This document shows positions 48,926-52,353 of a DNA stretch of 52,353 nucleotides, piece after piece (position 1 is the stretch's first letter; each line of letters opens with the position of its first letter). The stretch covers positions 1 to 52,353 of the forward strand of contig CALNEX010000001.1 of the NCBI GenBank assembly GCA_939791845.1, given 5' to 3'. Under the pieces are notes generated by a model. It did not search any database. It was not told the origin of the DNA and saw nothing but the letters and a program-made list of their open reading frames with translations. The translations under genes were made by a program, and so were the position numbers. This DNA is from an uncultured Mediterranea sp. GTDB lineage: Bacteria > Bacteroidota > Bacteroidia > Bacteroidales > Bacteroidaceae.

Positions 48926-50278
48926 ATGAACCACAACAATCCTCATCTCATGGGCACGGAGCCCATCGGCAAATTGCTGTTGCAATACTCCATTCCTGCC
49001 ATTATTGGCATGACCATTGTTTCGCTCTACAACATCATCGACAGCATCTTCATCGGCCACGGCGTAGGTCCGATGGCCATCGCTGGCTTGGCTATCACCT
49101 TCCCGATGATGAACTTGACGGCGGCCTTCGGCAACCTGGTGTCGGCTGGCGGCTCCACCATTTCGTCCATCCGCTTGGGACAGAAGGACCTGGTGGGCGT
49201 CAACAAGGTGCTGGGCAACACGTTGATGCTCTGCATCGTCAACTCTATCATCTTCGGAGGGCTGTCCTTCCTCTTCCTCGACTACATCCTGCGCTTCTTC
49301 GGCGCAAGCAGCGAGACCCTGCCCTATGCCCGGGACTTCATGCAAATCATCCTGGCAGGCACCCCCTTCGCCTACGTGATGATCGGCATGAACTACGTGA
49401 TGCGTGCCACGGGCCATCCCAAGAAGGCCATGCTGACGTCCATGACCAGTGTGCTGGTCAACGTCATCCTGGCACCCCTGTTCATCTTCCAGTTCGACTG
49501 GGGCATCCGCGGCGCCGCCCTGGCCACGGTGTGCTCGCAGTTCATCGGCATGTTGTGGGTGCTGAACCACTTCCTGAACAAGAAGAGCGACATCCGCCTG
49601 CAACGCCCCTACCTCAAGCTGGAGCGGCGCATCGTGGGGGACATCTTCTCCATCGGCATGTCGCCCTTCCTGATGAACGTCACGGCCTGCGTCATCGTCA
49701 TCATCATCAACAACGCCCTGAGCAACCACGGGGGCGACCTGGCCATCGGCTCCTACGGCATCATCAACCGCCTCTTGATGCTCTACCTGATGATTGTCAT
49801 GGGCCTGACCATGGGCATGCAACCCATCATCGGCTACAACTTCGGGGCCCGCAAGCCCGAGCGGGTGAAGCAGACGCTGCGCCTAGCCATCACCTGGGGC
49901 GTGTGCATCACCACCAGCGGCTTCCTCATCTGCGAATTGTTCCCCCACGCCGTGTCGGCCGTGTTCACCAGCGATGATGTCCTCATCGACATGGCGTCGC
50001 ACGGGTTGCGCATCTGCGTGGCGATGTTCCCGGTCATCGGGGCGCAGATAGTCATCGGCAACTTCTTCCAAAACATCGGCCTGGCCAAGATGAGTCTCTT
50101 CCTCTCCCTGACGCGCCAGCTCATTTTCCTGCTGCCCTGCCTGCTCTTCTTCCCCGGCATCTGGGGCCTGGACGGCGTGTGGGTCAGCCTGCCCGTCAGC
50201 GACCTGCTGGCCTTCCTGACGGCAGTGGCGGCGTTGCTGTGGTATATGAGGAGGCAAAAGCGGGCGGTGACAGATTGA
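48926..50278 (+). CDS. MATE-family efflux transporter (MepA-like)
   Basis: YSIPAIIGM..SLYNIIDSIFIG; NVILAPLFIF; GIRGAALAT; QPIIGYNFGA. Confidence 0.92.
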   Translation: MNHNNPHLMGTEPIGKLLLQYSIPAIIGMTIVSLYNIIDSIFIGHGVGPMAIAGLAITFPMMNLTAAFGNLVSAGGSTISSIRLGQKDLVGVNKVLGNTLMLCIVNSIIFGGLSFLFLDYILRFFGASSETLPYARDFMQIILAGTPFAYVMIGMNYVMRATGHPKKAMLTSMTSVLVNVILAPLFIFQFDWGIRGAALATVCSQFIGMLWVLNHFLNKKSDIRLQRPYLKLERRIVGDIFSIGMSPFLMNVTACVIVIIINNALSNHGGDLAIGSYGIINRLLMLYLMIVMGLTMGMQPIIGYNFGARKPERVKQTLRLAITWGVCITTSGFLICELFPHAVSAVFTSDDVLIDMASHGLRICVAMFPVIGAQIVIGNFFQNIGLAKMSLFLSLTRQLIFLLPCLLFFPGIWGLDGVWVSLPVSDLLAFLTAVAALLWYMRRQKRAVTD

Positions 50279-50700
50279 CATAAGGATATTTTTTAGACAT
50301 AAGAATATAGGGACATATATTTATTTTAGACATAGGAACAGAGGAACATATTTTCAAGTAGGTTTTTAAGGACATAGGAACATAAGAACATATTCTTAAT
50401 AGACAGGAAGAAATGAAAAATACAGAGGATATTATCAGGACCATCATACGATGTGCTTCAAAAGTAAGAAGGCAACTGGCTGCAGGCTTTTTAGAATCAT
50501 CTCACAGCTACACACATAGACGATGGTCTCTTAATCAATTTCGGGGAGAGAAGCTGGAAATCAAAAGGAAATACCGCATATATCGTCCCCCACTCCCTTA
50601 AAGGCATATCCCTATGCCCTATTAAAATATGTCCCTATGTTCCTATGTCCTTAAAAACCTACTTGAAAATATGTCCCTATGTTCCTTTGTCTAAAATAAA
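50277..50700 (+). mobile_element. IR-bounded element (GACATAGGA 9-bp-triplet family) carrying a GxxExxY remnant
   Basis: 75-bp IR 50320-50394 / 50626-50700 with 5 mismatches by manual alignment; extra units at 50277-50319. Confidence 0.75.
50413..50601 (+). pseudogene. Internally deleted, frameshifted GxxExxY (PD-(D/E)XK-like) protein
   Basis: N-terminal IIRCASKVRRQLAAGFLES, then in a shifted frame LTATHIDDGLLINFG, then GEKLEIKRKYR; the central part is missing. Confidence 0.82.
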
Positions 50701-50746
50701 TTTGTTACCTTTGCCCGTGAAACCCTAACTAAAACATCTTAATCTT

Positions 50747-50974
50747 ATGAACGTACAAAGCATCGGAGAAAACGCCGGCATCGTTTGGAAACAGCTGGCA
50801 AGCGAACACCGCAAATGGGAATACGCTGAAGTGAAAGCGGGCACCGGCCTGGCCGACCGCGACTTGAACGCCGCCATCGGATGGCTGGCACGCGAAGGCA
50901 AAGTGGAAATTGAGGAAAGCAAGGTGGGACGCAAGACCATCATCTACCTCACGCTGTGCTACTACATCAGCTGA
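50747..50974 (+). CDS. Small winged-helix protein (DUF2582-like)
   Basis: IGENAGIVWKQL...LNAAIGWLAREGK; TACCTTTG at 50706-50713. Confidence 0.85.
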   Translation: MNVQSIGENAGIVWKQLASEHRKWEYAEVKAGTGLADRDLNAAIGWLAREGKVEIEESKVGRKTIIYLTLCYYIS

Positions 50975-50995
50975 CACACGCCTGTGGATAAGAAC

Positions 50996-51026
50996 AAGGG
51001 GAGCTCCTCGCGGGGTTCCCCTTTTC
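50996..51026 (+). terminator. Rho-independent terminator
   Basis: AAGGGGAGCTCC-TCGC-GGGGTTCCCCTT followed by TT. Confidence 0.75.
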
Positions 51027-51029
51027 TAT

Positions 51030-51212
51030 TTTTAAGACATAGGAACATAAGGACATATTTATAGTTAGATCATTTTTTAGACATAAGAACAAAGGAACAT
51101 ATTATTCATTAGACATAGAAACATAGGGACATATTCGTTTCATCTCACCGTAATACGAGCAAAAATATGTTCCTTTGTTCCTATGTCTAATAAATATGTC
51201 CCTTTGTCAAAT
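51030..51212. repeat. Empty (ORF-less) hairpin element of the GACATAGGA family
   Basis: Three left triplets (for example AGACATAGGAACATAAGGACATATT) and inverted right units AATATGTTCCTTTGTTCCTATGTCTAA. Confidence 0.85.
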
Positions 51213-51215
51213 AAA

Positions 51216-52353
51216 TCACTCTGTCTTGATACTCTCCACCGGATTCTCGTTGGCAATGCTCCAAGCCTTGAGGATGACGATGACAACAATGAGCACCAGC
51301 AGCACCACGGCCAGCAAGACGAAGTGCAGGACGCTGACCTCGGCTTGCCCGGCAAACTGCGTCAGCCACTCCGTGCCCACATACCAGGCCACGGCAGTGC
51401 CCAACGCCACGCAAGGAAACGCCACCCAGAGGATGCCGCGCGAGAGCAACGCCAGGATATCGCCCGCCGTGGCCCCGTTGACCTTGCGGATGGCTATCTC
51501 CTTGGCGCGGCGACCCGTCTCGTCGTTGACGTAGCCGATGAGACCCATCAGCACGATGAGGACGATGAAGAGCGAGGTGAGCATCACGGAGTTGCGGAAG
51601 CGGGAAACGTCCCAGTACATATTGCGGTGCAATTCATCCACACTGACAAAGTGCAGCCCCACGTCGGGGAAAGCCTCCTTCATAAAGGCATTCAGCTGCT
51701 TCAGGTTATCGTCGTAAGGCTCTTTCAAGCGGACGTTGAAGGCGTGGTAGACAGTGGCATACGCTAGAGCGATGGGATTCTGTCCATTGGCAAAACCGGA
51801 GTTGCGCACATCGCGGAAGACACCCACGATGGGATAATCCTCCTGCCGGCCAGGACGGAAGTTGTTCAGCCGCTTACCGATGGCACCATCCGTCCAGCCC
51901 ATGAGGCGCACCACTTCCTCATTGACTATGACTTCTCCCAATCGCTCAGGGGCATGACCTTCGAGCATTTGGATGCCAGTCACTTGCACGTAATCCTTGC
52001 CACAGGGATTCCAGTTGAGGATAGCGATGCGCTTGCCGCTGTTGTCTATCAGCCCTTGCGTCCAGTAATCCCACAAGATGCCGTTGGCGGCTGTGGTGAC
52101 ACCCTCCACGTAGGGTTGGCGGCGGATATAGTCGCAGACGGATTCGCCTTGTTCCCCATCCATCCAATTCTCCGCCTGCACGAGGCCGGGGATACGGAAA
52201 CCCATGTCGGCGTTGATAAGCATGGTGTATTGCATCGCAGTCACCAGCAGCAGCCCCAACACAAAGCTGACGCCCGCGAACTGCACGGCCAGCAGCCCGC
52301 GCTTCCAGCCCTTCTTGCCATCGGTGTAGCGGCGGAACACCTGCGTGACGGGT
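51216..52353 (-). CDS. ABC transporter permease (MacB/FtsX family), 3' portion
   Basis: KRGLLAVQF; DMGF; VIVNE; IVGVFRD; RRAKEIAIRKVNGA; ANENPVESIKTE. Confidence 0.9.
   Translation of the reverse strand, partial: PVTQVFRRYTDGKKGWKRGLLAVQFAGVSFVLGLLLVTAMQYTMLINADMGFRIPGLVQAENWMDGEQGESVCDYIRRQPYVEGVTTAANGILWDYWTQGLIDNSGKRIAILNWNPCGKDYVQVTGIQMLEGHAPERLGEVIVNEEVVRLMGWTDGAIGKRLNNFRPGRQEDYPIVGVFRDVRNSGFANGQNPIALAYATVYHAFNVRLKEPYDDNLKQLNAFMKEAFPDVGLHFVSVDELHRNMYWDVSRFRNSVMLTSLFIVLIVLMGLIGYVNDETGRRAKEIAIRKVNGATAGDILALLSRGILWVAFPCVALGTAVAWYVGTEWLTQFAGQAEVSVLHFVLLAVVLLVLIVVIVILKAWSIANENPVESIKTE

What the first reader, a model, noticed from the sequence alone, without database searches (positions are those of the whole stretch)
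50277..51212. GxxExxY nuclease remnant inside long 9-bp-unit inverted repeats, beside an empty copy: a RAYT/REPIN-like system with a PD-(D/E)XK-type enzyme?
Seen: a deleted and frameshifted GxxExxY gene (GFLES | LTATHIDDGLLINFG | GEKLEIKRKYR) sits inside a 75-bp IR built of GACATAGGA-like 9-bp units in triplets. About 330 bp downstream the same units form an ORF-less hairpin (51030-51212). Known: GxxExxY proteins are a small uncharacterised PD-(D/E)XK-like family, and RAYT genes show the same pattern of gene-in-REP plus empty REPIN copies. Inference: GxxExxY may be the mobilising enzyme for a class of non-autonomous hairpin elements, and this locus would show the decay path from full to deleted to empty element.
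Basis: partly seen in the sequence, partly recalled or inferred. Interest (0 to 1): 0.85.

Follow-up and report, generated by a model that had tools for sequence, protein, structure and literature searches.

The report
Decayed nuclease cassette with matching hairpins
A broken copy of a small nuclease-like gene sits inside mirror-image repeats next to a gene-less hairpin built of the same repeats; across gut bacteria each gene lineage goes with its own repeat word and the cassettes are swapped at fixed gene junctions, so the enzyme likely spreads both itself and the hairpins, though its activity is untested.

Summary
The feature is real, with two corrections. The units are 8 bp, not 9, and the gene-less hairpin is not the end of the gene's decay. 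The remnant is a 197-bp plus 1-bp deletion of a GxxExxY (PF13366) gene that is full length at the same junction in three relatives (two intact, one with a stop). Across relatives, 91 of 102 non-redundant GxxExxY genes have flanking inverted repeats (controls 3 of 85), and the repeat word follows protein clade. In 250 genomes of the genus, dispersed boxes go with their own clade: 9 of 12 box-rich genomes for the 8-bp family, 32 of 50 for a second family, no cross-association. Exceptions exist and kin are not independent. Cassettes are swapped at fixed junctions; one is 100% identical over 549 bp between genomes about 80% alike downstream. Gene-less hairpins favour convergent junctions and show no target duplication. 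Best reading: a Cas4/RecB-like nuclease that recognises its boxes, homes between alleles and seeds hairpins. It works like RAYT/REPIN and Ssn but is neither. Activity is untested. I found no description in print; this scan has reported the class on other DNA several times.

The parts
48926..50278 (+). MATE-family transporter gene, upstream host gene; its last codons and stop overlap the first degenerate unit of the left arm
   Evidence: ORF; Pfam MatE; the four filled genomes share the same last codons, unfilled ones differ
50269..50410 (+). Left arm: degenerate units at the MATE stop, then three boxes of three 8-bp units (50296-50317, 50329-50350, 50371-50392) separated by AT-rich spacers
50413..50601 (+). 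GxxExxY (PF13366 / TIGR04256) pseudogene: codons 1-29 kept, 197-bp deletion after about 50498 that removes the catalytic core, 15 out-of-frame codons, 1-bp deletion in the G run near 50543-50546, native last 18 codons and stop
   Evidence: catalytic columns from alignment A3
50605..50701 (-). Right arm: degenerate inner unit, then two boxes (50628-50649, 50670-50691); 50626-50701 is 93% complementary to 50319-50394, spacer included
50747..50974 (+). DUF2582 winged-helix gene, host gene between the two elements
   Evidence: Pfam PF10771, E 3e-19
50996..51023 (+). Terminator-like stem-loop after DUF2582; shared with G073, G188 and G019, not part of the repeat element
51027..51212 (.). Gene-less hairpin at a convergent junction: three boxes on + (51036-51057, 51080-51101, 51112-51133), one box (51166-51187) and a half box (about 51195-51208) on -
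51216..52352 (-). MacB/FtsX-type ABC permease, convergent host gene whose stop abuts the hairpin (5' end beyond the window)

Best explanation
The window holds a dead copy of a selfish gene-plus-arms cassette and a separate gene-less hairpin of the same repeat family; the intact GxxExxY protein is a predicted PD-(D/E)XK nuclease that likely recognises its own boxes, likely moves the cassette between alleles of a fixed gene junction by break-and-copy repair, and likely seeds the gene-less hairpins at other gene ends. SHOWN: the gene is framed by clade-specific arms; cassettes fill a whole intergenic space, co-oriented in operons; they are exchanged between species at the same junction; gene-less box pairs with a shared spacer sit at many sites; they replace local intergenic DNA without a target duplication; they co-occur with the matching clade; the gene is conserved at this junction and then decays. 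PREDICTED: Cas4/RecB/lambda-exonuclease-like fold with a full catalytic set in intact copies. INFERRED: that the protein binds boxes, that it cuts, that host recombination copies the cassette or a box pair into the break, and that arms are remodelled by copying from each other.
For: Arms: 91 of 102 non-redundant genes beat the best of 100 shuffles, against 3 of 85 control windows; 60 of 70 usable loci from other phyla. Repeat word changes 12 times on a 172-protein tree (138 labelled rows), against 73 or more in 200 shuffles; one word spans four or more phyla. Two-way specificity in 250 genomes: 8-bp boxes (10 or more) in 12 genomes, 9 with clade A (19 of 250 have it), 2 with clade B; CACAGAG boxes in 50 genomes, 32 with clade B (48 of 250), 3 with clade A. 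Same junction, different hairpin, each matching that genome's own gene: window site 2 in G091; one G165 site in G012. Eleven G165 copies share arms and spacer with unrelated flanks; one site is empty in G016 and G017, whose left flanks are 94-97% identical. Exchange: G004 and G165 are identical over 549 bp from left arm to codon 15 of the next gene, then 68-87% per 60-bp window. Of 509 same-site pairs, 11 have both flanks at 88% or more but genes at 70% or less, with the break at the flanking stop and start codons. The four filled genomes at the window site are not one clade on the MATE tree, p-AU 1.3e-6. dN/dS 0.05-0.08 among the three full-length copies. Model pLDDT 94; best Foldseek matches Cas4 SSO0001 (E 1e-4), MGME1, lambda exonuclease; VIA-align top rows are PD-(D/E)XK folds, Z 8.5, rmsd 2.9, 95 aligned.
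Against: No activity was or could be measured. 13 of 50 CACAGAG-rich genomes have no GxxExxY match and 5 more have only other clades; 3 of 12 genomes rich in 8-bp boxes have no matching gene or remnant, two of them 99-100% complete. 10 of 19 clade A genomes have fewer than 10 boxes. Some clade B genes have CACAGATT arms in genomes rich in CACAGAG boxes. Genomes are kin: the 9 positive genomes are about six lineages by my reading of flanks, so the Fisher p values overstate. Arm labels were defined after seeing the arms, and linked inheritance alone gives few changes on a tree. No control was run for how often other short genes show identical tracts between these species. A left arm beat the best arm from another genome at its site in only 18 of 39 cases. 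The MATE tree cannot tell repeated gain from repeated loss. No near-identical gene was seen at two different junctions.
Confidence: 0.55

Rival explanations
1. The protein recognises the boxes but serves the host, as SsnA does in Neisseria: it filters incoming single-stranded DNA or processes box-containing nucleic acid, and hairpins multiply as a by-product.
For: Purifying selection like the neighbouring host gene; usually 1-4 copies per genome in the genus; rare on plasmids (8 of 72,556 records) and not found in phages (0 of 50,697); Ssn precedent (PMC11893778, sections 7 and 12 read).
Against: Only 89-90 of 250 genomes have a gene; broken copies recur, two of four at this junction; cassettes replace each other at fixed junctions. 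Selfish homing genes are also conserved while they spread.
Confidence: 0.2
2. The repeats spread by their own slippage, template switching and ordinary recombination; the gene is a passenger between arms, and the association reflects shared ancestry and co-transfer.
For: Box-rich genomes without the gene exist; box number and spacers change fast even among strains; boxes in G019 bracket an unrelated 132-aa membrane-protein gene; no target duplication.
Against: Two-way clade specificity; sub-clade match, GG-type units around the window's gene and in G073/G019 hairpins versus AAG-type in G165; the same word stays with a protein clade across phyla; catalytic columns are kept.
Confidence: 0.15
3. 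The arms act in RNA: they pair in the operon transcript, loop the gene out or are cut by RNase III as in rRNA intervening sequences, which makes the insert harmless; gene-less copies act on mRNA ends.
For: The cassette folds into one long stem as RNA, z = -11.9; 61 of 81 cassettes are co-oriented with both neighbours; contigs from three RNA runs cover the gene (may be DNA).
Against: No strand bias in arm mismatches: 89 G-T type against 73 A-C type, p = 0.24. It does not explain why the repeat word follows the protein clade or how hairpins disperse. It can hold alongside the best explanation.
Confidence: 0.1

Closest known systems
RAYT / REPIN, REPtrons and TIRtrons (10.1101/2021.07.10.451892 and PMC3733652, passages read)
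   Same: Low-copy enzyme gene framed by inverted cognate repeats; gene-less inverted pairs dispersed between genes; fixed sites; rare on plasmids; preference for tandem and convergent junctions.
   Different: Enzyme is PD-(D/E)XK, not an HUH tyrosine transposase; repeats are non-palindromic triplets of 8-9-bp direct units, not GTAG/CGTC palindromes; cassettes are exchanged between species and decay, whereas RAYTs are described as vertically inherited.
Ssn nucleases with NTS/SRM repeats (PMC11893778; abstract, sections 7 and 12 read)
   Same: Small single-domain nuclease gene flanked on both sides by its own repeat, with further copies genome-wide and gene-repeat pairs that vary together.
   Different: Ssn is GIY-YIG and each SRM is itself a hairpin; here each box is a direct triplet and hairpins form only between boxes. 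Ssn cutting is shown in vitro; nothing is shown for GxxExxY.
Free-standing homing endonucleases of T4-like phages, intronless homing (PMC2988022, passages read)
   Same: Promoter-less gene in a fixed intergenic site, transfer between alleles with co-conversion, replacement of one cassette by another, decay and loss.
   Different: Those are GIY-YIG or HNH genes in phages, without repeat arms or dispersed gene-less copies; here the host is a bacterial chromosome and the vector is unknown.
PF13366 PDDEXK_3 / TIGR04256 GxxExxY family (PMC3424549, one table row read)
   Same: The remnant's orthologues are members (E 3e-37); the paper lists function unknown and multiple transfers.
   Different: The row says nothing on repeats or on the cassette form.
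Insertion sequences and MITEs (established knowledge, recalled)
   Same: Inverted ends around an enzyme gene; non-autonomous short copies.
   Different: No target duplication, no multi-copy autonomous element, and gene-less copies are not internal deletions of the cassette.

Membership tests
GxxExxY / PF13366 | Profile match over the family | tested here: met
   Full-length orthologues at the same junction: PF13366 E 3e-37, TIGR04256 over cut-off for G073. The remnant alone scores E 0.09.
GxxExxY / PF13366 | Intact catalytic set (E, D, ExK, QxxxY) in the window copy | tested here: not met
   The deletion removes about codons 30-95, with the D, ExK and QxxxY columns.
RAYT/REPIN | HUH Y1 tyrosine transposase | tested here: not met
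   Pfam, Atlas and fold searches all give PD-(D/E)XK.
RAYT/REPIN | Gene flanked by inverted cognate repeats | tested here: met
   91 of 102 and 60 of 70.
RAYT/REPIN | Dispersed gene-less inverted pairs that match the resident gene | tested here: met
   exceptions 3 of 12 and 18 of 50.
RAYT/REPIN | Repeat unit is a short palindrome with GTAG or CGTC tag | tested here: not met
   Boxes are direct triplets of 8-bp units.
RAYT/REPIN | Vertical inheritance, gene tree follows host | tested here: not met
   Swaps and identical tracts at the same junction.
Ssn / SRM | GIY-YIG domain | tested here: not met
   Only PF13366 matches the intact protein.
Ssn / SRM | Sequence-specific cutting of single-stranded DNA at the repeat | not testable with these tools
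   Needs purified protein.
Free-standing homing endonuclease | Fixed site, filled and empty alleles, transfer between alleles with a short co-converted tract | tested here: met
   sequence signature only, no control on ordinary genes.
Free-standing homing endonuclease | Cuts the empty allele and spares the filled one | not testable with these tools
   Needs an assay; a box-like 12-mer in one empty allele is only suggestive.
IS / MITE | Target-site duplication at insertions | tested here: not met
   Four G165 sites against 9 other alleles (a tenth comparison failed): intergenic DNA and sometimes terminal codons are replaced, no duplication seen.
IS / MITE | Non-autonomous copies are internal deletions of the autonomous element | tested here: not met
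   2 hits of 13-14 nt among 34 spacers against 14 clade A gene regions.
ORF-bearing intervening sequence (RNA stem, RNase III) | Stem selected on the transcribed strand and processed | tested here: inconclusive
   Strong fold, no G-U bias, only contigs available for RNA runs.

The most novel reading that the evidence does not exclude
GxxExxY genes are a third, large class of nuclease-plus-cognate-repeat elements beside RAYT/REP (HUH) and Ssn/SRM (GIY-YIG): a 125-aa Cas4/RecB-like enzyme with many clade-specific 8-9-bp recognition words that both homes its own cassette between alleles of fixed operon junctions and writes gene-less hairpins into gene ends by replacement, without target duplication. 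It would account for up to 150 repeat boxes per Bacteroides genome and give a natural library of very small sequence-specific nucleases.
Probability: 0.45. Interest if true: 0.85.

Novelty: new variant of a known kind. Interest (0 to 1): 0.68.

Why it matters
GxxExxY is a widespread family with no assigned function. The clade-to-word pairing gives each protein a candidate substrate, so the function is directly testable with short oligonucleotides. If right, it explains an abundant unannotated repeat class in gut Bacteroides, joins two lifestyles known separately (homing and REPIN-like seeding) in one element, and adds a small programmable-by-clade nuclease family. The window's own copy is dead; its value is as one step of a documented intact, stop-containing, deleted series at one junction.

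Tried and rejected
Rfam: no match reaches a gathering score; the BTnc060 hit (35.6 bits, cut-off 228.9) is hairpin plus terminator shape only; 18 related loci gave only miRNA-shape hits. Assembly artefact: rejected as the sole cause. Deleted-to-empty decay path: rejected. Target duplication: a shared TAAAT at one G165 site looked like one, but the adjoining letters belong to the host gene end and four other sites show none. RNA-stem bias: not found. Promoter-like hits inside boxes (8 found, 2.9 expected) use a sigma-70 consensus that I recall does not fit Bacteroides; not used. No solved-structure relative by sequence. No relative in viral contigs with the clade A protein as query; 2 viral contigs hold the box, not examined. 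No remnant of a clade A gene found by DNA search in G019, G041, G231, G016, G272. No earlier finding on look-alike stretches. No complex prediction was obtained, so the oligomeric state is open. RNA contigs cover the gene but cannot show transcription. The script stopped with an error before its last three profiles. PMC4692102 (abstract and outline only) concerns G-quadruplex heptamers and was not used further; PMC5771137 (passages) concerns other MITEs.

Full report
OBSERVATION. Between the stop of a MATE transporter gene (48926-50278) and a DUF2582 gene (50747-50974) lies a 76-nt inverted repeat, 50319-50394 and 50626-50701, 93% complementary. A second, gene-less hairpin lies at about 51027-51212 between DUF2582 and a convergent ABC permease. 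Both are built of boxes of three direct units. The box pattern has 9 matches in the 52-kb window, all here, and none in 100 shuffles. The period is 8, not 9. The 9-bp version exists in this genome, but around its other, intact GxxExxY gene between sufC and sufD.

THE REMNANT. The same junction holds a full-length gene in three relatives: G073 (one premature stop), G188 and G181 (intact). Against G073 the window lacks 197 bp and 1 bp. This removes about codons 30-95 and the conserved D, ExK and QxxxY columns. Of four DNA runs laid, one contig in X9 bridges the deletion; X1, X4 and X7 have full-length alleles. X9 may be the source sample. The three full-length copies have dN/dS 0.05-0.08, like MATE at 0.04-0.10. 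Arms differ in box number and spacer among the four genomes and among runs. Other relatives have a short empty junction (G045), other inserts or other neighbours. On a tree of 17 MATE genes the four filled genomes are rejected as one clade (p-AU 1.3e-6); gain and loss cannot be told apart.

THE PROTEIN. The intact orthologue matches only PF13366; the Atlas gives only GxxExxY clusters. The model (pLDDT 94, 22 sequences) matches Cas4 SSO0001 at E 1e-4, then MGME1, AdnAB and lambda exonuclease. The wide structural search gives PD-(D/E)XK folds at Z 8.5 and below, with no standout. A shared fold shows no activity.

ARMS ARE THE RULE. From 195 loci with full flanks, 102 genes remained at 90% identity; 91 have an upstream/downstream inverted match above the best of 100 shuffles, against 3 of 85 control windows further out. 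This set leans to the window's genus and to clade A. In a separate set from other phyla, 60 of 70 usable loci (of 80 fetched) pass. The repeat word changes 12 times on a tree of 172 proteins (138 labelled, 34 left unlabelled), against 73-plus in 200 shuffles. The window's 8-bp family is confined to one branch (clade A) whose sister group has GACAGGAT arms in Verrucomicrobiota, Pseudomonadota, Bacteroidota and Lentisphaerota. This shows that gene and arms travel together, not that the protein reads them.

GENE-LESS HAIRPINS. In 250 genomes of the genus I counted two box families and two protein clades (table). 8-bp boxes reach 10 or more in 12 genomes: 9 have clade A (19 of 250, four of them broken), 2 have clade B. 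CACAGAG boxes reach 10 or more in 50 genomes: 32 have clade B (48 of 250), 3 have clade A. Reversed-pattern controls gave 2 and 0 hits. Against this: G019, G041 and G231 are box-rich with no clade A gene or remnant; 13 of the 50 have no gene and 5 only other clades; 10 of 19 clade A genomes have under 10 boxes; kin are not independent. Two same-junction contrasts point the same way as the table: window site 2 carries a different hairpin in G091 that matches G091's own gene arms, and a G165 junction carries a CACAGAG hairpin in G012 that matches G012's gene. One contrast does not: G016 and G017 carry a CACGGATT hairpin without a matching gene found. Eleven G165 copies share arms and a 60-bp spacer with unrelated flanks, so whole units were copied. 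Compared with other alleles at four sites, the element replaces the intergenic DNA, sometimes with the last codons of the flanking genes, and shows no target duplication. 16 of 28 non-redundant gene-less pairs lie at convergent junctions, against 22% (291 of 1341) and 28% (59 of 212) in two backgrounds, by a crude ORF caller; 61 of 81 gene-bearing cassettes are co-oriented with both neighbours.

NO DELETED-TO-EMPTY PATH. The window's hairpin is at another junction and is present in G073 and G188 beside full-length genes, absent in G181. 34 spacers give 2 hits of 13-14 nt against clade A gene regions. In 9 hairpin-rich, gene-less genomes (10 searched, one without a radA match) the radA junction has no arms.

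CASSETTES MOVE BETWEEN ALLELES. Within the genus most genes sit at a few junctions (27, 16, 8, 5, 4 and 4 loci at the six commonest flank pairs). Among 509 same-site pairs, 11 have both flanks at 88% or more and genes at 64-70%; the extreme is 98.6/98.5% flanks and a 67% gene. Identity breaks at the upstream stop and downstream start. Conversely G004 and G165 are identical over 549 bp covering arm, gene, arm and the first 15 codons of the next gene, then 68-87%; G004 keeps a dead stump of its own gene start upstream. One CRCGGATT branch occupies three different junctions, so new sites are taken occasionally. The gene was found in 8 of 72,556 plasmid records and 0 of 50,697 phage records. I ran no control on ordinary genes, so general recombination could give part of this signal.

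MECHANISM. I commit (0.55) to a nuclease that recognises its boxes, with host break repair copying the cassette into the same junction of a relative and copying box pairs into other gene ends. The pattern is shown; binding, cutting and repair route are inferred. Rivals: domesticated Ssn-like role (0.2), passenger gene (0.15), RNA stem (0.1; folds at z = -11.9, but mismatches are 89 G-T to 73 A-C).

COMPARISON AND NOVELTY. It works like RAYT/REPIN (10.1101/2021.07.10.451892, 12 passages; PMC3733652, 12 passages) and Ssn/SRM (PMC11893778, abstract and sections 7 and 12), and its cassette behaves like free-standing homing endonucleases (PMC2988022, 12 passages). It fails defining tests for RAYT, Ssn and IS/MITE. 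Searches for GxxExxY, PF13366, PDDEXK_3 and TIGR04256 found 3 and 5 papers; I read the one table row in PMC3424549 (function unknown) and saw the others only as listings. Combined searches found no description of these arms. The library lacks most subscription papers, and I opened no supplements; those of the Ssn paper could list further gene-repeat pairs. The scan's own notes report this class on other genomes at least ten times, including a homing reading that I saw after reaching mine; they are unchecked leads and gave me the Ssn, heptamer and T4 papers and the RNA rival.

VERDICT. Real; first reading partly supported; new variant of a known kind (nuclease gene plus cognate repeats) with a third enzyme fold and a homing signature. 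Interest 0.68; 0.85 if the enzyme is shown to read its boxes and drive both movements (probability 0.45).

Noticed in passing
L280 (G004), L276 (G017), L275 (G144), L282 (G258); empty alleles L438-L442, L428, L429: At a tRNA_SAD (AlaX-like) gene the clade A cassette sits inside the gene's 5' end: a dead stump of the recipient's first 20 or so codons is left upstream and a different allele's N-terminus follows the right arm. The left junction falls in a 12-mer that is 10 of 12 identical to a box. That second N-terminus also occurs in cassette-free genomes (L436, L449), so it is a carried host allele.
   Followed up: partly
G000 C6:3395-3757 (L001:1449-1887): The genome's one intact GxxExxY gene lies between sufC and sufD with a 33-nt inverted repeat of 9-bp CRCGGATT units: another clade, another word.
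   Followed up: yes
G000 C44:284-460, C105:4506-4610, C23:19397-19418: Further gene-less copies of the 8-bp family in this 63%-complete genome.
   Followed up: partly
window 50499-50546: The 197-bp and 1-bp deletions sum to 66 codons, so the remnant ends at the native stop. Chance or selection against read-through into the arm; not tested.
   Followed up: no
L136 (G164), L135 (G091), L343 (G016), L374, L375: Convergent junctions are shared by several small element families: window site 2 holds other palindromic repeats in G164, and a small CCGCAAGG...CGCTACGCCCC element recurs beside or in place of GxxExxY-type hairpins.
   Followed up: no
L331:1622-2141 (G019): An inverted pair of 8-bp boxes brackets a 132-aa membrane-protein gene in what looks like a prophage lysis region.
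   Followed up: partly
L028, L272: In some cassettes the inverted repeat runs into the start codon, so the gene's start could pair with its own 3' end and be held silent.
   Followed up: no
window 51216-52352: The ABC permease is only about 52% identical to that of G073, G188 and G019 but 84% to G252's, while DUF2582 is 93-100% identical: allele exchange right beside the hairpin.
   Followed up: no
L462 / L032:1890-2650 (G019): The MATE-DUF2582 junction holds an unrelated insert of about 750 bp, and site 2 holds only a 13-nt half box; a 7-bp direct repeat fits either a deletion scar or a pre-existing target.
   Followed up: partly
G033: One genome of another Bacteroidales family has 13 GxxExxY matches, far above the 1-4 usual in the window's genus.
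   Followed up: no
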